Source of the DNA: a virus
Taxonomy: Duplodnaviria > Heunggongvirae > Uroviricota > Caudoviricetes
DNA: 5,030 nucleotides
Strand: one strand, 5' to 3'
IMG/VR virus record: IMGVR_UViG_3300022758_000366
The translations under genes and the position numbers were made by a program. How positions within the stretch are numbered: position 1 is the stretch's first letter; every line of letters begins with the position of its first letter. This document shows, piece by piece, positions 1 through 4,904 of this stretch. The notes beneath the pieces were generated by a model. That model did not search any database. It was not told the origin of the DNA and was given only the letters and a program-made list of their open reading frames with translations.

Positions 1-1848
1 CACATGCCGGGACCATTACCGTCTATGAAGGTTCCAGACCAGGTACGCTGAATGATTTTCTCGGTGCCATGACGGAGGATGAGCCCGTCCGGAGGCACTG
101 CGCCGTTTTGAGCTGATGGTGAATGAAGTGGCACGTCATGCCGGAGCGTCATCACAGAGCGCAGCGGCGGCAAAGAAATCCGAAACTGCAGCGGCATCAT
201 CGAAGAACGCGGCGAAAACCTCAGAAACGAATGCAGCTAATAGTGCACAGGCGGCAGCGACCTCACAGACTGCATCAGAAAACTCCGCGACAGCAGCCAA
301 AAATCAGAAACCAACGCGAAAAATAGCGAGACAGCCGCAAAGACGAGCGAAACCAACGCAAAGTCCAGCCAGACGGCAGCGAAAACCAGCGAAACGAATG
401 CCAAAGACAGTGAAGCCACGCAAAAGGTGAGCGAAACAGCGGCTGCGAACTCAGCGAAAGCATCGGCAGCAAGCCAGACGGCAGCTAAAGCAAGCGAAGA
501 TGCAGCCAGAGAGTACGCAAGCCAGGCTGCGGAGCCGTATAAATATGTCTTACAGCCGCTGCCTGATGTGTGGATACCATTTAACGATTCGCTGGATATG
601 ATTACGGGCTTTTCGCCGTCATATAAAAAGATTGTTATTGGTGATGATGAAATAACGATGCCTGGCGACAAGGTTGTTAAGTTTAAACGCGCATCGAAAG
701 CAACCTATATTAATAAATCTGGTGTGCTGACAGTGGCTGCCATTGACGAGCCACGGTTTGAACGTGATGGCCTGCTTATTGAGGGGCAAAGAACGAACTA
801 CATGCTCAATTCGGAAAGCCCTGCCAGTTGGGGGCGATCGTCAAATATGGATGTTCCCGAAACCGGGACGGATAGTTTTGGTTTTACCTATGGAAAGTTT
901 GTCTGTAACGATTCTCTGATTGGGCAAACCTCAGCCATTAATATGGCATCAATTGCTGCAACAAAGTCAGTTGATGTCTCAGGCGATAATAAATACGTGA
1001 CAACCTCATGTCGTTTTAAAACAGAACTGCAGGTAAGGTTGCGTATCCGATTTGATAAATATGACGGTAGCGCAACAACTTTTCTTGGTGATGTGTATAT
1101 TGATACACAAACGCTTGAAATTAATATGACAGGCGGCGCTGCCTCAAGGATTACAGCGAGAGTCAGAAAGGACGAAGTTATCGGATGGATTTTTGCAGAG
1201 GCAACAATTCAGGCAATTGATGGGGAGTTAAAAATAGGTTCTCAGATACAGTATTCTCCTAAGCAGGGCGGGGCAACCGTATCTGGTGACTATATTTATC
1301 TGGCCACCCCACAAGTAGAAAATGGGCCTTGTGTATCATCTTTTATTATATCAGGAACGACGGCGGCGACCCGCGCAAGCGATATAGTCACAGTTCCCAT
1401 TAAGAATAATCTTTATAATCTTCCTTTTACGGTTCTTTGTGAGGTACATAAGAACTGGTATAAAACGCCAATGCAGCACCGCGTGTTTTTGATACCGGCG
1501 GTCATCAAACCGGAGCGGCTATTATTCTTGGCTTCGGTTCTTCAGCAGATTACGACGGATTTCCTTATTGCGATATTGGTGGGTCTAACAGACGGATAAA
1601 CGAAAATGCATCACTTGAAAAAAATGGTTATGGGGATGCGTGTAAAGTCTGATCAGTCTACATGCGCAGTAAGTAACGGGCGTATATCCAGCGAAACAAA
1701 AACCACATGGTCCTGTATTCAGAACACCGCAATTATCCGTATTGGAGGCCAGACTACAGCCGGGTTACGTCATTTATTTGGTCATGTAAGGAATTTCAGA
1801 ATATGGCACAAGGCATTGACTGATGCTCAGGTGGGGGAGTCAATCTAA
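1..1848 (+). CDS. stf: Side tail fibre protein (lambda Stf-like N-proximal part, Ala/Ser/Thr repeat, LamG-like distal domain); 5' end outside window; reading frame broken as sequenced
   Basis: Frame 3 at 3..113 gives HAGTITVYEGSRPGTLNDFLGAMTEDEP. Frame 2 from 83 gives ARPEALRRFELMVNEVARHAGASSQSAAAAKKSETAAASSKNAAKTSETNAA. Both peptides match my recollection of lambda Stf (HAGTITVYEDSQPGTLNDFLCAMTEDDARPEVLRRLELMVEEVAR). Frame 1 from 299 continues KSETNAKNSETAAKTSETNAK to the stop at 1597-1599. A frame-3 stretch 1482..1649 (DTGGHQTGAAIILGFGSSADYDGFPYCDIGG) and frame 1 at 1651..1848 (ending GLRHLFGHVRNFRIWHKALTDAQVGESI) look like one concanavalin/LamG-type domain. The listed ORFs 116..430, 427..1599 and 1606..1848 are pieces of this one gene; the 'M' at 427 is an internal GTG. 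Confidence 0.85.
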
Positions 1849-2156
1849 TGAAAGATTTAACACTCAAATTTCCCGACAGGGCCGACTTTTCGGCCTTTAT
1901 GGAGAGCATTGGCTATTATGATGACGAGTTGATGCAGGATGATATTCTTATTGACGTGATAGGTAACGTGTACAAAGAAACCGGAGAACTGACTGAAGAT
2001 GGCGAACCGGTATGTGTTAAGGAAGACGGATATTTTGTAAACGTGCGCATCATTATGATGCAAAAAAATCGTCAATATTCGATAAATACGCGGTTGTTGT
2101 TGAGCATCAACTTCGTGGCTGGATGTGAGGGAGACAAATGGCTACATCGACAGTAA
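1848..2156 (+). CDS. Hypothetical small acidic protein (102 aa) in the tail-fibre operon
   Basis: The ATG at 1848 overlaps the stf stop as TAATG (translational coupling). The ORF is rich in Asp/Glu and sits between two fibre genes. Its 3' end overlaps the next ORF by 19 nt in another frame. No family recognised. Confidence 0.45.
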   Translation: MKDLTLKFPDRADFSAFMESIGYYDDELMQDDILIDVIGNVYKETGELTEDGEPVCVKEDGYFVNVRIIMMQKNRQYSINTRLLLSINFVAGCEGDKWLHRQ

Positions 2157-2842
2157 TTCCAGGAGATATCACCACGCTAAAGGGAGATGTCAGTAAAACT
2201 AAGGAAGAGATTTCCTCAATTAACGGAAAAGTATCAACGCTTCAGACTGATATGACCAGTGCAAAGCAGGATATCAGCACCAGATACACAAAAACTGAAG
2301 TTGATAATAAGCTGAAAAACAAAGTGGAAGTGAACGATCTGGAAAGTGGTCGTTATGGCGGAGATTTTTATCCACTGACAGGTCGTGAAGCGTTTTATTT
2401 ATGGAATTTGGCCACGACTACAGCGGCGGCAAACCTTTATCTTAATCCTGACCCCGCAATTTCGTCTGTACTGCGGTCAACATCATCTATCCGCTATAAA
2501 CATTCAGTAGAGACAATAGATTCAGAGCACGCCGATCTCATTTTCAGGATGCGCCCTGTGTGGTACAGGTCGCAATGCGAAAATGACAGGCGTGACTGGG
2601 GATTCTATGGATTGATTGCCGAGGAAGTTGGAGAAATTGCCCCTCAGTTTGTTCACTGGCGACCAGCCAACGAAGATGATGCACCGGAAACCATTTCCAG
2701 CAATGGCCTTGTTGCCGAAGGTGTAATGTACGAACGTCTGGTTGTTCCACTGATTCACCATATCCAGAAACTGACTGAAAGAGTTGATGAACTTGAGTCA
2801 GAGTTAAAGTTGTTATCCGTTTCCCGAAGCGATATCGGATAA
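2138..2842 (+). CDS. Tail fibre/spike-type protein with C-terminal intramolecular chaperone auto-processing (peptidase S74-like) domain
   Basis: GAGGGAG lies about 5 nt upstream of the ATG at 2138, and a frame-2 stop sits at 2126-2128 just before it. The N-terminal half is heptad-like (DITTLKGDVSKTKEEISSINGKVSTLQTD). The C-terminal region SSIRYKHSVETIDSEHADLIFRMRPVWYRS...WGFYGLIAEEVGEIAPQFV...GVMYERLVVPLIHHIQKLTERVDELESELKLL follows the consensus of the endosialidase/T5 LtfA chaperone domain (S-x-x-R-x-K ... GxIAQEV..P ... Y..LvPLl..iqeL...LE). Confidence 0.8.
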   Translation: MATSTVIPGDITTLKGDVSKTKEEISSINGKVSTLQTDMTSAKQDISTRYTKTEVDNKLKNKVEVNDLESGRYGGDFYPLTGREAFYLWNLATTTAAANLYLNPDPAISSVLRSTSSIRYKHSVETIDSEHADLIFRMRPVWYRSQCENDRRDWGFYGLIAEEVGEIAPQFVHWRPANEDDAPETISSNGLVAEGVMYERLVVPLIHHIQKLTERVDELESELKLLSVSRSDIG

Positions 2843-2852
2843 AGGAGGAGTA

Positions 2853-3140
2853 ATGGATATAACACCTTTTCTTCATGCGCTTTGTGCTGTGGCTGCGCAG
2901 GTACTGATTGGCCTTTTTACCGGAAACTGGGCTTACGGTGCGATAGCCGGTTGTACGTTCTTCATTGCGCGTGAACACACCCAGGCAGAATATCGCTGGA
3001 TTGAAATGTTTGGGCATGGCAAGAGGATTAACATGCCGTGGTGGGGCGGTTTTGATCCGCGCGTGTGGGATGTGGCAAGCCTGATGGATTTTGCTGTGCC
3101 GGTGGTGGCGTGTCTGCTGATCTGGATGTTGATCCGTTAA
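2853..3140 (+). CDS. Small integral membrane protein (95 aa, about three hydrophobic helices); moron-position gene, possible superinfection-exclusion or lysogenic-conversion function
   Basis: A strong Shine-Dalgarno AGGAGGAG at 2843-2850 precedes the ATG at 2853. Hydrophobic segments are FLHALCAVAAQVLIGLF, WAYGAIAGCTFFIA and VASLMDFAVPVVACLLIWMLI. It lies between the tail-fibre genes and the att site and is followed by a hairpin. No lipobox. Confidence 0.6.
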   Translation: MDITPFLHALCAVAAQVLIGLFTGNWAYGAIAGCTFFIAREHTQAEYRWIEMFGHGKRINMPWWGGFDPRVWDVASLMDFAVPVVACLLIWMLIR

Positions 3141-3155
3141 ATATAAAAAGTAAAA

Positions 3156-3191
3156 AGCCGCAGTAACTTGTCATGATAGGATACTGCGGCT
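3156..3191 (+). terminator. Stem-loop downstream of the membrane-protein gene (possible intrinsic terminator)
   Basis: AGCCGCAGTA (3156-3165) pairs with TACTGCGGCT (3182-3191), a 10-bp stem around a 16-nt loop, 16 nt after the stop at 3138-3140. The following sequence GGTTAACTTTCG is only weakly T-rich. Confidence 0.3.
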
Positions 3192-3485
3192 GGTTAACTT
3201 TCGATAGTGCGAGTATTGAATGATTTCCAGCCGTTACCGATTTTATATAACTGCAGTGGAATTATTCAACACACAGGCAAAACGGAATAAGCTGAGAAAA
3301 AAAGCGTGCTTACCCAATCTGGGGTAAATCACGTCTGAATGACACCTGAAAACAGGTGGTGGCCTCAAGAAGGCTTGGAATATTCTTCTTTAATGTTATG
3401 TAATTTATTGATTTTTCGTGTACGATTTTAAGACATTTATTCCAAGAAAAGTTTTTAACTCTTTGATTTTTCGACTCTGTATCAT

Positions 3486-3547
3486 CGGTCTCGAAAACCG
3501 GAGTGGGGGCAACTCCACCGGGGGTTCAAATCCCCCTCTCTCCGCCA
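3486..3547 (+). other. 3' portion of a tRNA-Ser(CGA) gene (anticodon stem-loop to CCA); not a complete tRNA; att core
   Basis: CGGT-CTCGAAA-ACCGG gives an anticodon loop with anticodon CGA. A long class-II variable arm AGTGGGGGCAACTCCAC follows, then T arm GGGGG-TTCAAAT-CCCCC, acceptor 3' strand TCTCTCC, discriminator G and CCA. Nearly identical to my recollection of E. coli serU from the anticodon stem onward. The upstream sequence TTTTTCGACTCTGTATCAT cannot form the acceptor 5' strand or D arm. Confidence 0.8.
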
Positions 3548-3592
3548 AAATTCAATCACTTACACATCATTAAGTCAGTGACAAAAATCACA

Positions 3593-3628
3593 CTTGGAAT
3601 TACTTGGAATATTTTCTTGGAATATTTT
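3593..3628 (+). repeat. Three tandem direct repeats CTTGGAAT(T/A)TT(TT): putative integrase arm-type binding sites (P' arm)
   Basis: Units at 3593-3602, 3603-3615 and 3616-3628. The same 11-mer recurs at 3374-3384 and inverted at 3435-3446. The repeats overlap the last codons and stop of the int fragment. Confidence 0.55.
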
Positions 3629-3945
3629 CAGGTAACGGGACATCAAGTGTTGGTGAAACTTTAACCTTCCTGTCATAGATTAGCACTTGCCCTTCGGTTT
3701 TGTGACCAGAGAAAAGTTGCTTATCCCGGCTGCTTCCTTCATAGTCTGAAATTCCTTTCGCCTTCAGATCATGAAAGGTGAAGTCGGTTAAAATACCTGA
3801 AATTTTTCCAGCACGATTTCTTGCTTCTACCCACATTTCGTTAAAGCCTTTGTACATATATCGGTTGCCGTATTGATTGCTGATCACATAGGCAGATTTT
3901 GGTAACTGTTTTGCTTTTCGATCGCTGCCTGTAATCGTGGACTCC
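3600..3945 (-). pseudogene. int: Tyrosine integrase (lambda Int family), C-terminal fragment only; N-terminal and core-binding domains absent
   Basis: The C-terminal ~100 residues of the 3600..4199 ORF (AYVISNQYGNRYMYKGFNEMWVEARNRAGKISGILTDFTFHDLKAKGISDYEGSSRDKQLFSGHKTEGQVLIYDRK) align by eye with the lambda Int C-terminus (TFHELRSLSARLYEKQISDKFAQHLLGHKSDTMASQYRDDR), including the His, the GHK His and the Tyr nucleophile. The Arg of H-x-L-R is Lys here. Nothing upstream resembles the first catalytic Arg/Lys region. The 3' end abuts the att site. The boundary at ~3945 is approximate. Confidence 0.7.
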
Positions 3946-4407
3946 ATGCTTTTATCTGTATCTTTATCTGTCGTGACTCGTCGTGACATGTGCGTGACAT
4001 TTCGTGACGCGCCGTGACAATCGCCATTTTGTTCCCGCTTTCTTTCCCTCTCTCGCTGCGCCCTCTTGCGCTCTGCAGGAGATTTTGCGGTTTGCGAAAT
4101 ATTGCCGTTGTCCTCTTTAAGCACCTGGCGTTTTTCCCATCCAGTGATTAAATCACCATCAAGTACCCGCCCCTGCATCGTCTGCAAAATTTGAATCAAT
4201 TACCTCTTCTGTCACGTCGAGCGCACTTGCCAAATCTTCTGTCGTGACATCAATGTGACCTCGCGTGACATTTCGTGACGCGCTCACCAGGAGGTGGATA
4301 TACACTGCCATCACTGTTGCAATTGGCTGCCCTGACACCCTGGCAATTGTTCGCCACTTAGGGTCATTTGGCATGTCATGCCATAATCTGAGCCAGGCGT
4401 TAGCCAT
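3946..4407 (-). CDS. Putative phage replication initiator (YdaU/DUF1376-like N-terminus, from memory), frameshifted and continuous with the int fragment
   Basis: ATG at 4407 with SD GAGGTGAG. The N-terminus MANAWLRLWHDMPNDPKWRTIARVSGQPIATVMAVYIHLL resembles the W..Y....DPK N-terminal motif I recall for DUF1376/YdaU-like initiators. A frame change lies near 4160-4200, after which the sequence continues as QGRVLDGDLITGWEKRQ...ERKRAQRERERK. Iteron-like repeats are embedded in the coding sequence. Sits immediately downstream of a YdaT-like gene, as in the Rac ydaS-ydaT-ydaU-ydaV module. The 3' boundary is approximate. Confidence 0.45.
3972..4279. repeat. Iteron-like CGTGAC direct repeats with ~10-11 bp phasing (putative replication origin inside the initiator gene)
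   Basis: CGTGAC starts at 3972, 3982, 3993, 4003 and 4013, then at 4243, 4254 (TGTGAC), 4264 and 4274, with an inverted GTCACG at 4211-4216. An identical 21-mer GCGTGACATTTCGTGACGCGC occurs at 3992-4012 and 4263-4283. An AT-rich block with TATCTG repeats lies at 3948-3970. Confidence 0.55.
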
Positions 4408-4479
4408 ACTCACCTCTTCTGATACCGAATCTTTTTTACTCACGAGTTGCCGGAAGCGATTCGATATGGCTATTATCAC

Positions 4480-4904
4480 TCAATGCACTGCCACAGCATT
4501 TCCTGCCGGGCCACCACGGTTCATCTGATTGAAACCGGCGATTGCCACTGCGACAAAATCATCGGCGTCTCTCACCAGTCGCTCCCGCGTCTCCACCAGC
4601 TCCCGAAATAAGCTGAACTGTGGCTACGCATTCTGGCCACCAGCAAAGGTGGCATTGCCTTTTCGATCGCTGGTACAACGCCTGAATTTTTTCAACTGCA
4701 TCAGGGGTGTCTTTCTCTACCCAGCGGAAAATTTTCTGGGTATTGCGAGCCAGGGCTTCCGGATGGCTGTCGTCGTACAGTTCAGGAAACGTCATACCCA
4801 ACTCAAAATAAGCCTGGGTTATTCCAGCTGCCGGAACTTTTTTCGCCATCAGGACGCGCCCAGGCATTCATCGCCATGCGGATGTGTTCATGCTTGATTT
4901 TCAT
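4480..4904 (-). CDS. YdaT-like protein (Rac prophage ydaT family, assignment from memory), interrupted by two frame changes as sequenced
   Basis: ATG at 4904-4902 is preceded by AAGGGGGG. The frame gives MKIKHEHIRMAMNAWARPDGEK, then after the T6 run at 4838-4843 a second frame gives VPAAGITQAYFELGMTFPELYDDSHPEALARNTQKIFRWVEKDTPDAVEKIQALYQRS, and a third frame (ELVETRERLVRDADDFVAVAIAGFNQMNRGGPAGNAVAVH) ends at the stop 4480-4482 just before the next gene's RBS. Removing two single-base insertions gives 141 codons, which matches my recollection that YdaT is 140 aa. Confidence 0.45.

What the first reader, a model, noticed from the sequence alone, without database searches (positions are those of the whole stretch)
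2853..3191. Moron-position membrane protein between the tail fibres and attP
A 95-aa protein with about three transmembrane helices has a near-perfect Shine-Dalgarno and its own downstream hairpin. It sits where lambdoid phages carry lysogenic-conversion or exclusion genes (lom/bor, gtr, cor, sie-type). I recognise no family. It is a candidate superinfection-exclusion or receptor-masking factor expressed from the prophage.
Basis: inference. Interest (0 to 1): 0.5.

Follow-up and report, generated by a model that had tools for sequence, protein, structure and literature searches.

The report
Uncharacterised small phage inner-membrane protein
The 95-residue gene is real and belongs to a widespread, strongly conserved but unstudied family of small inner-membrane proteins found in phages and in bacterial chromosomes; it is probably made with the late phage genes and works at the inner face of the membrane, so it is unlikely to mask a surface receptor.

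Summary
Window 2853-3140 (+) encodes a 95-aa protein behind a perfect AAGGAGG Shine-Dalgarno. AlphaFold gives three helices (pLDDT 91.5). A conserved hairpin lies at 3156-3191. The gene sits between the tail-fibre genes and a serU-derived att core.

It belongs to PHROG 1443 (unknown function). I found no Pfam, NCBIfam, PADLOC, PDB or fold relative. The family has 427 representative clusters across Proteobacteria and occurs in 35% of complete E. coli genomes. All 87 E. coli-type copies checked are intact, with dN/dS of 0.19.

- The positive-inside rule puts the invariant motif (H8, R40-E41, Q44, E46, W72, P83) on the cytoplasmic side. Almost nothing faces the periplasm, so receptor masking is unlikely.
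- The transferable unit starts at the Shine-Dalgarno and carries no promoter.
- The start is often coupled to the upstream fibre gene. In 34 of 87 loci a terminator-like hairpin lies 21 nt upstream. This points to late-operon expression.
- The U-tract of the downstream hairpin is on the minus strand.
- Some relatives sit next to lysis genes. Others are stand-alone chromosomal genes.

The function is unproven. My best guess is an inner-membrane protective or exclusion role. Interest is moderate.

The parts
2842..2848 (+). Shine-Dalgarno AAGGAGG, 4 nt before the ATG. It overlaps the stop codon of the upstream fibre gene.
   Evidence: Sequence read. The same or a similar Shine-Dalgarno is found in 50 of 87 related loci.
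2853..3140 (+). 95-aa inner-membrane protein of the PHROG 1443 family. Helices lie at 4-23, 26-53 (hydrophobic 26-39) and 74-94. The conserved motif is REHTQAEYRWI...NMPWWGGFD...W..S.LD...P.
3156..3191 (.). Conserved G+C-rich hairpin. An A-tract precedes it on the + strand, and a U-tract follows it on the - strand. It is a bidirectional or leftward (int/dinI, tI-like) terminator.
   Evidence: In mEp460 it lies between the ORF and the convergent dinI-int genes.
2138..2842 (+). Upstream gene: a 234-aa short tail fibre with a C-terminal Peptidase_S74 intramolecular chaperone. The ORF is probably co-transcribed with it.
   Evidence: PF13884, 7e-6; phrog_3299, 1.4e-139.
1848..2156 (+). Small acidic protein of phrog_1361/18574. 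It recurs next to the family in Escherichia, Comamonas and Pantoea prophages.
3485..3548 (+). Phage-borne copy of the 3' 62 nt of tRNA-Ser(CGA) serU. This is the att core that bounds the accessory slot.
   Evidence: Alignment to K-12 serU. Rfam gives a partial tRNA-like match.

Best explanation
The ORF encodes a real accessory, non-virion inner-membrane protein of an uncharacterised pan-proteobacterial family (PHROG 1443).

Shown:
- It has three helices.
- The predicted topology is N-terminus in and C-terminus out.
- An invariant polar cluster (H8 in helix 1, R40-E41/Q44/E46 at the end of helix 2, W72/D79/P83 at the start of helix 3) lies at the cytoplasmic face.
- It is the last cistron after the receptor-binding genes, next to attP.
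- It is under strong purifying selection.

Inferred:
- In lambdoid and P22-like phages it is transcribed as the end of the Q-antiterminated late operon, not from a promoter of its own.
- It acts alone, with no constant partner gene, on a conserved host component at the inner membrane.
- The most likely outcome is protection of the cell that carries it at the inner-membrane step. This would be a block to entry or establishment of incoming phage DNA, analogous in function to T4 Imm, HK97 gp15 or P22 SieA. It would not be masking of an outer-membrane receptor.

Bacteria that keep stand-alone or remnant copies would gain the same protection.
For: - It is a real, constrained gene: phrog_1443 at 4.7e-58, 570 homologues and 427 representative clusters. 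All 87 E. coli-type copies are intact at 95-97 aa. dN/dS is 0.19 overall and 0.045 in helix 2 plus the loop.
- Structure and topology.
- The accessory slot is independent of the receptor-binding protein. The gene follows an S74 fibre in the window, a different fibre plus a 92-aa ORF in mEp460, and an unrelated tailspike in JEP4. In each case it lies just before attP/int.
- Its G+C is 52% against 44-45% in the neighbours.
- It is kept intact in decayed prophages. Examples are Qin of E. coli B, where the fibre is cut by IS3, EC21GDE043, where the fibre genes are pseudogenes, and this window.
- Stand-alone chromosomal copies are flanked by host genes. They are syntenic across species in Leclercia and Aeromonas, and lie next to ligA or pnp in alphaproteobacterial MAGs. 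The protein therefore works without phage partners and is tolerated or useful in uninfected cells.
- Only remnants survive after an S74 tailspike in the non-lambdoid coliphages HC6, ST1UNAM and PBM-2/3.
- It is found in 1906 of 5426 complete E. coli genomes, with up to 7 copies each.
Against: - There are no functional data, and I found no paper on this family.
- It has no sequence or fold relation to any known exclusion protein.
- No promoter is evident. A terminator-like hairpin lies upstream in about 40% of E. coli loci. Expression in lysogens, which classical exclusion needs, is therefore doubtful.
- An invariant cytoplasmic motif across phyla looks more like an enzyme or ligand site than an interface with variable phage proteins.
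- In several phages the gene lies next to lysis genes.
- Intact copies exist in jumbo Aeromonas phages of the genus Ferozepurvirus.
Confidence: 0.3

Rival explanations
1. It is a late-expressed lysis or envelope modulator. As the terminal late-operon cistron, it would tune holin triggering or membrane integrity (an antiholin-like or holin-accessory role) at the end of the lytic cycle.
For: - Tight coupling to late genes: an ATGA overlap with the tailspike gene in JEP4, overlapping or abutting starts in many taxa, and no promoter.
- A terminator-like hairpin lies 21 nt upstream in 34 of 87 loci. Q-modified late transcription would be expected to read through it.
- It lies next to lysis genes in unrelated phages. 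In Pantoea L034 a GH108 endolysin is two genes downstream. In Comamonas L023 a 2-TM protein, a phrog_3108 protein and an Rz-like spanin follow it. In L140 it lies between multi-TM proteins, one of them weakly holin-like. In Aeromonas phage 62AhydR11PP it follows a phrog_3108 protein and a 2-TM protein.
Against: - Stand-alone, syntenic chromosomal copies in several genera and intact copies in cryptic prophages make no sense for a lysis-timing factor.
- In lambdoid genomes the lysis cassette is not in this part of the genome. It is absent from every fibre-to-int stretch examined. From general knowledge, the S-R-Rz cassette is complete without this gene.
- It has no charged C-terminal tail and no similarity to holin families.
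- In L023 and L034 the adjacency may only reflect a lysis module that follows the fibre module.
Confidence: 0.22
2. It is a miniature membrane enzyme or lipid-ligand binder of about DgkA size. It would act at the cytoplasmic leaflet on a conserved lipid or undecaprenyl-linked precursor, and so alter envelope composition. This would be lysogenic or infective conversion by a new chemistry.
For: - The invariant or near-invariant residues are H8, R40, E41, Q44, E46, W72, D79 and P83, plus Y47, R48 and R58. They are predicted to cluster at one membrane face.
- dN/dS is 0.045 in that region against 0.88 in helix 3.
- The family spans alpha-, beta-, gamma- and delta-proteobacteria and always occurs as a stand-alone protein of about 95 aa.
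- It occupies the slot where gtr and oac conversion genes sit in P22-like phages. That placement is established knowledge (gtr cluster in Hf4s).
Against: - 95 residues is very small for a catalytic unit, so it would need to oligomerise, which I did not test.
- Members occur in Sphingomonas-group MAGs. From general knowledge sphingomonads lack LPS, which would exclude an LPS-specific role.
- No partner glycosyltransferase or flippase is linked to it.
- The one 'Lgt' name in UniRef is spurious.
Confidence: 0.2
3. It is an accessory factor of one side-fibre module (phrog_1419/5939 fibre plus phrog_1361/18574 small protein), needed for fibre maturation or delivery.
For: The trio fibre, small protein and ORF recurs in Escherichia, Comamonas and Pantoea. 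Chelativorans has the fibre directly upstream. In L143 the order is changed (fibre, ORF, small protein), but the linkage is kept.
Against: - The ORF also follows unrelated tailspikes and fibres.
- It occurs alone in chromosomes and in phages without this fibre.
- An inner-membrane location with a cytoplasmic motif has no obvious role in fibre assembly.
Confidence: 0.08

Closest known systems
T4 Imm, HK97 gp15 and P22 SieA (inner-membrane superinfection-exclusion proteins)
   Same: All are phage-encoded inner-membrane proteins that are not part of the virion and act without a dedicated partner gene. Imm and gp15 are also small. They are carried by both temperate and virulent phages. These properties are from established knowledge; the SieA paper is PMC10883804, seen.
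   Different: There is no sequence or profile similarity. No Pfam, PHROG or PADLOC exclusion family is hit. This family has an invariant cytoplasmic motif and chromosomal homologues across Proteobacteria. Exclusion activity and expression in lysogens are untested, and the DNA signals do not support the latter.
Lambdoid morons at the end of the late region (lom, bor, cor)
   Same: It has the same orientation as the late genes and lies next to the host-range genes. Its composition is distinct (52% against 45% G+C). It is kept in decayed prophages.
   Different: Lom, Bor and Cor are outer-membrane proteins or lipoproteins (established knowledge); this is an inner-membrane protein. A classical moron carries its own promoter and terminator. 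Here the conserved unit starts at the Shine-Dalgarno, and the hairpin is oriented for the opposite strand.
gtrA, oac and other O-antigen conversion genes of P22-like phages
   Same: It occupies the same slot between the tailspike gene and attP/int in a Lederbergvirus (JEP4). It is a small multi-helix inner-membrane protein.
   Different: It does not match the GtrA family or acyltransferase families. No GtrB or GtrC partner is present. It is co-oriented with, and overlaps, the tailspike gene.
Holins and antiholins (lambda S, P2 LysA, P1 LydA/LydB)
   Same: It is about 100 aa with three helices. It is probably late-expressed and lies next to holin, endolysin or spanin genes in some phages.
   Different: It has no charged C-terminal tail and no match to any holin family. 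The predicted topology is N-in/C-out with a long conserved cytoplasmic loop. Stable chromosomal copies exist.
DgkA (121-aa, three-helix trimeric membrane kinase)
   Same: Its size is comparable and it has three helices. The conserved acidic, basic and His residues are predicted at the cytoplasmic interface.
   Different: DgkA is not among the listed fold matches, and there is no sequence similarity to any solved structure. The resemblance is only an analogy from general knowledge.

Membership tests
PHROG 1443 (phage protein family of unknown function) | Full-length profile match | tested here: met
   E = 4.7e-58, residues 1-95 against profile positions 1-95 of 97.
Classical moron (independent transcription unit in a late operon) | Own promoter immediately upstream of the gene | tested here: not met
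   No sigma-70-like site on the + strand in 2000-3700. In 2600-2852 there are only two 8/12 matches, against 1.9 +/- 1.7 in shuffles. Homology between contexts starts at the Shine-Dalgarno.
Classical moron (independent transcription unit in a late operon) | Own factor-independent terminator downstream | tested here: inconclusive
   The hairpin is conserved, with compensatory changes. Its U-tract is on the minus strand, and the plus-strand tail is weak.
Classical moron (independent transcription unit in a late operon) | Nucleotide composition distinct from the neighbours | tested here: met
   G+C is 52.1% against 44.5% and 45.3% for the flanking fibre genes.
Classical moron (independent transcription unit in a late operon) | Expressed from the repressed prophage | not testable with these tools
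   This needs lysogen RNA-seq or a reporter fusion. A terminator-like hairpin 21 nt upstream in 34 of 87 loci argues against it.
Superinfection-exclusion proteins (Imm, Sp, SieA, SieB, gp15, Cor, Llp) | Sequence or profile homology to a known exclusion family | tested here: not met
   No hit in Pfam, PHROGs other than 1443 and 34165, PADLOC, or BFVD and PDB folds.
Superinfection-exclusion proteins (Imm, Sp, SieA, SieB, gp15, Cor, Llp) | Blocks adsorption or DNA entry of the superinfecting phage | not testable with these tools
   This needs plating, adsorption and DNA-entry assays.
Receptor-masking factors (Cor/Llp type) | A periplasmic or outer-membrane domain able to contact the receptor | tested here: not met
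   It has no signal peptide or lipobox. The K+R distribution is 5.55 against 0.61 (66 of 69 sequences). This places the only sizeable loop in the cytoplasm and leaves about 3 loop residues and a short C-terminus in the periplasm. This is a prediction, not an experiment.
GtrA-like or O-antigen conversion proteins | GtrA-family match and linked GtrB/GtrC or acyltransferase genes | tested here: not met
   No Pfam match for 69 members at E <= 1. The neighbours are fibre, lysis or host genes.
Holins | Match to a holin family, a charged C-terminal tail, and a position in a lysis cassette | tested here: inconclusive
   There is no holin-family match and no charged tail. It lies next to lysis genes in some phages but not in lambdoid or P22-like phages. 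Chromosomal copies exist.
Virion structural proteins | Homology to tail, fibre or head components | tested here: not met
   The only PHROG hits are the unknown-function families 1443 and 34165.
Lgt (the name given to one Aeromonas member in UniRef) | Profile similarity to prolipoprotein diacylglyceryl transferase | tested here: not met
   hhalign of the family profile against E. coli Lgt gives probability 0.4%.

The most novel reading that the evidence does not exclude
PHROG 1443 is a previously unrecognised pan-proteobacterial family of miniature (about 95 aa) membrane enzymes or lipid-ligand binders. The His/Glu/Asp/Arg cluster at the cytoplasmic leaflet would act on a universal lipid or undecaprenyl-linked intermediate. 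Phages would have captured it as the last cistron of the tail-fibre operon, to remodel the envelope for exclusion or lysis timing, and bacteria would have domesticated it repeatedly.
Probability: 0.15. Interest if true: 0.7.

Novelty: new variant of a known kind. Interest (0 to 1): 0.4.

Why it matters
The family is very common. It is in about a third of complete E. coli genomes, often in several copies, and in hundreds of divergent clusters in Proteobacteria and their phages. It still has no Pfam entry, no structure and no literature.

It travels with receptor-binding modules, the most frequently exchanged part of phage genomes. Whatever it does is therefore spread together with host-range determinants.

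If it blocks phage entry or alters the envelope, it would affect phage-therapy host ranges and prophage-mediated immunity in E. coli. If it is an enzyme, it would be among the smallest known. If it is only a late accessory protein with a small effect, the finding is ordinary.

Tried and rejected
- Pfam, NCBIfam and PADLOC on the ORF, and Pfam on 69 diverse members, gave nothing.
- A PDB sequence-profile search gave 0 hits at E <= 10.
- The 'Prolipoprotein diacylglyceryl transferase' name in UniRef was tested by hhalign against E. coli Lgt and rejected.
- Linkage to the S74 chaperone domain is rejected. The JEP4 tailspike and the mEp460 fibre are unrelated to the window's S74 fibre.
- An own promoter in 2780-2852 was not found above chance.
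- Literature searches by PHROG id, FIG id, RefSeq protein ids and topic terms found no study of this family. One search failed on a term-length limit.
- ARAGORN finds no complete tRNA in the window. The att core is only a tRNA 3' fragment.
- A spurious ORF is rejected by conservation, selection and the confident model.

Full report
OBSERVATION

The window carries an ATG-initiated ORF at 2853-3140 (+) of 95 codons. AAGGAGG lies at 2842-2848, four bases before the ATG. It overlaps the TAA stop of the upstream gene, so only 10 nt separate the two reading frames.

Hydropathy shows hydrophobic stretches at about 4-23, 26-39 and 74-94. An AlphaFold2 model built on 24 homologues is confident (mean pLDDT 91.5, pTM 0.73), with helices 4-23, 26-53 and 74-94.

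The finding's end coordinate (3191) is the end of a hairpin at 3156-3191. As plus-strand RNA it folds at -28.1 kcal/mol, z = -5.1.

The neighbourhood is as described. Upstream are three genes:
- a side-fibre gene of the phrog_1419 type, broken here into 116-430, 427-1599 and 1606-1848;
- a small phrog_1361 ORF (1848-2156);
- a 234-aa fibre with a Peptidase_S74 chaperone domain (2138-2842).

Downstream, 3485-3548 is the 3' 62 nt of tRNA-Ser(CGA) serU with two compensating changes. This is a phage-borne att core. It is followed by an integrase 3' fragment fused to replication-gene debris.

Complete genomes show the same order:
- J, lom, fibre, 93-aa ORF, S74 fibre, this ORF, int in E. coli noe1104;
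- fibre, 92-aa ORF, this ORF, dinI, int in phage mEp460;
- tailspike, this ORF, lambda sib/attP, int in the P22-like phage JEP4.

IS IT A REAL GENE?

Yes.
- It matches phrog_1443 over its full length (4.7e-58).
- It has 570 homologues at E <= 1e-3 in the 90% clusters.
- A profile search of 1.8 billion representatives finds 427 clusters, all stand-alone proteins of about 60-150 aa.
- Close DNA relatives occur in 1906 of 5426 complete E. coli genomes, with a median of 2 and up to 7 copies.
- In all 87 E. coli-type loci I could examine, the ORF is intact at 95-97 aa.
- Pairwise dN/dS is 0.19 overall. It is 0.045 in helix 2 and the following loop, and 0.88 in helix 3, which is mosaic.

WHAT FAMILY?

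None that has a name.
- Pfam, NCBIfam and PADLOC give nothing for the ORF.
- Sixty-nine diverse members give no consistent Pfam hit even at E <= 1.
- A family profile finds no PDB sequence.
- Every database name is 'hypothetical protein', except one UniRef label, 'Prolipoprotein diacylglyceryl transferase'. A profile comparison with E. coli Lgt rejects that label (probability 0.4%).
- I found no paper on the family.

ANATOMY

Across 69 members that are 28-57% identical to the window protein, R40, E41, W72 and P83 are invariant. H8, Q44, A45 and E46 are at least 90% conserved. Y47, R48, I50, R58 and D79 are about 76-89% conserved. The consensus is H(8)...GREhAQAEYRxI...G.R..MPW..GF.P..W...S.LD...P.

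The hydrophobic helices themselves vary. The conserved polar residues sit at the start of helix 1, the end of helix 2 and the start of helix 3, which is at one membrane face.

The N-terminus plus the 40-73 loop carry on average 5.55 Lys+Arg. The helix 1-2 turn plus the C-terminus carry 0.61. This holds in 66 of 69 sequences. By the positive-inside rule, the N-terminus and the conserved loop are cytoplasmic. Only a three-residue turn and a short C-terminus face the periplasm. This is a prediction, but a consistent one.

GENOMIC CONTEXT ACROSS TAXA

(i) Temperate phages and prophages. The gene is the last or nearly last gene after the receptor-binding genes, on the same strand.
- The most frequent upstream families among 122 neighbours are tail and tail-fibre proteins.
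- A trio of phrog_1419/5939 fibre, phrog_1361/18574 small protein and this gene recurs in Escherichia, Comamonas and Pantoea. Chelativorans has the fibre directly upstream. One metagenomic phage has the order fibre, gene, small protein.
- The gene also follows fibres and tailspikes unrelated to these. It is therefore linked to the slot, not to one receptor-binding protein.
- Starts overlap or abut the upstream stop in JEP4 (ATGA) and in Comamonas, Acidovorax, Chelativorans and Pantoea. The same is seen in metagenomic phages.

(ii) Next to lysis genes in some phages.
- In Pantoea L034, a GH108 endolysin lies two genes downstream.
- In Comamonas L023, a 2-TM protein, a phrog_3108 protein and an Rz-like spanin follow.
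- In L140, the gene lies between multi-TM proteins, one weakly holin-like.
- In Aeromonas phage 62AhydR11PP, it lies after a phrog_3108 protein and a 2-TM protein.

(iii) Stand-alone chromosomal genes flanked by host genes.
- In Leclercia, a peptidase M3 or a GGDEF protein lies upstream. A periplasmic-binding-protein/ABC-transporter cluster lies downstream at the same site in five species.
- In three Aeromonas genomes, a tRNA-Val cluster lies about 4.5 kb upstream, and in one of them a pirin gene lies directly upstream.
- In alphaproteobacterial MAGs, the gene follows ligA or lies near pnp.
- The Leclercia copy has its own downstream terminator.

(iv) Other phages.
- An intact 87-aa copy is found in the jumbo Aeromonas phage AVP1.
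- Only a decayed 51-aa remnant survives after an S74-type tailspike in coliphage HC6 and three similar records.

Cryptic prophages keep the gene intact while neighbouring fibre genes decay. Examples are Qin of E. coli B, EC21GDE043 and this window.

EXPRESSION SIGNALS

- No sigma-70-like site is found on the plus strand between 2000 and 3700.
- A relaxed scan of 2600-2852 gives two 8/12 matches, against 1.9 +/- 1.7 in shuffles.
- Homology between the three E. coli contexts begins at the Shine-Dalgarno, so the exchanged unit carries no promoter.
- In 34 of 87 loci, a five-base-pair all-G+C hairpin followed by GTTTTATT lies 21 nt before the ATG. That leaves no room for a promoter. In that context I infer that the gene is reached mainly by antiterminated late transcription.
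- The downstream hairpin is conserved, with two pairs kept through changes on both sides. Its canonical U-tract follows the stem on the minus strand.
- In mEp460 the hairpin lies between this ORF and the convergent dinI-int genes. It is best read as a leftward or bidirectional terminator, similar in position to lambda tI/sib. It is not the ORF's private terminator.
- The ORF's G+C content (52%) does differ from its neighbours (44-45%), as morons typically do.

INTERPRETATION

Shown:
- It is a conserved, selected small inner-membrane protein.
- It sits in the accessory slot after the receptor-binding genes.
- It has no constant partner gene.
- It is able to persist alone in bacterial chromosomes.

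Inferred: late-operon expression in phages, cytoplasmic orientation of the conserved site, and action on a conserved host component.

Prophage expression has no support in the DNA signals. An Imm/gp15/SieA-like block at the inner membrane remains compatible. It best explains retention in cryptic prophages and chromosomes, so I rank it first at about 0.3.

The rivals are as follows.
- A late lysis or envelope modulator (0.22). This fits the operon position and the lysis-gene adjacency, but not the chromosomal copies.
- A miniature membrane enzyme or lipid binder (0.20). This fits the invariant His/Glu/Asp/Arg cluster, but has no fold precedent.
- An accessory of the phrog_1419/5939 fibre module (0.08). 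This fits the recurrent trio, but not the other contexts.

About 0.2 is left unassigned.

NOVELTY AND SCORE

The family is catalogued (PHROG 1443; RefSeq 'hypothetical protein') but uncharacterised. It is unrelated to every known exclusion, conversion or lysis family.

I file it as a new variant of a known kind, namely phage-borne small inner-membrane accessory proteins. Interest is moderate (0.4). It is abundant, travels with host-range modules and has a striking conserved motif, but there is no phenotype yet.

Noticed in passing
window 3485-3548: This is the 3' 62 nt of tRNA-Ser(CGA) serU. Two changes keep a stem paired (GGAGTG...CTCCACC against GGAGTA...CTCTACC in K-12). It is a phage-borne att core. 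An integrase 3' end lies directly to its right, which gives an attP-like rather than attR-like junction. That suggests tandem or remnant prophages at serU.
   Followed up: yes
window 3600-4867 (- strand): This is a scrambled remnant. An integrase C-terminal fragment is fused in one ORF to replication-initiator (lambda O-like, phrog_3729) fragments. A second O fragment lies at 4159-4479, and a cII/YdaT-like fragment at 4559-4867. All are on the minus strand.
   Followed up: partly
window 3967-4018 and 4238-4279: CGTGAC-rich direct repeats (TCTGTCGTGAC plus a 39-nt block, spaced about 261-271 nt apart) lie inside the O-like fragments. They look like origin iterons duplicated by the rearrangement.
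   Followed up: partly
window 116-1848: The phrog_1419 side-fibre gene (about 800 aa when intact, as in L004 and L147) is split into three frames here. The 92-aa phrog_1361 ORF (1848-2156) has an altered C-terminus. This is either real decay or homopolymer sequencing errors.
   Followed up: partly
L057 5965-5979 (and 33 other E. coli-type loci): A terminator-like hairpin, GGGGCCGAGCGCCCC followed by GTTTTATT, lies between a 346-aa S74-type fibre gene and the ORF, 21 nt before its ATG.
   Followed up: yes
L138 3965-4120 (coliphage HC6; also ST1UNAM, PBM-2, PBM-3): An unannotated 51-aa ORF carries a remnant of the family motif (IPWWGGFDWRAWDLPSLLD) directly after an S74-type tailspike. The fragment seems to have been co-transferred with the tailspike 3' end and then decayed. 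The BFVD library also holds a 42-aa fragment from phage anhysbys.
   Followed up: partly
L136 2499-2993 and L023 6973-7521: phrog_3108 ('unknown function', 165-183 aa, with a shared LQESR...F.QFE motif) lies next to the family in Aeromonas phage 62AhydR11PP and just before an Rz-like spanin in a Comamonas prophage. It may be an unannotated endolysin.
   Followed up: no
L033 and L035 6305-6688: In Comamonas nitrativorans and Pigmentiphaga prophages, the gene is followed by an Avd gene (phrog_3206). Reverse-transcriptase matches among the downstream neighbours point to a diversity-generating retroelement, so the upstream fibre is probably the DGR target.
   Followed up: no
L139 (E. coli B95.deltaA, Qin prophage): The same module (fibre cut by IS3, 93-aa ORF, 234-aa S74 fibre, 97-aa member of the family) lies in cryptic prophage Qin of an E. 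coli B derivative. It is followed by a tfa fragment and pinQ. Public BL21 transcriptome or proteome data could therefore show whether the gene is expressed in a non-induced cell.
   Followed up: no
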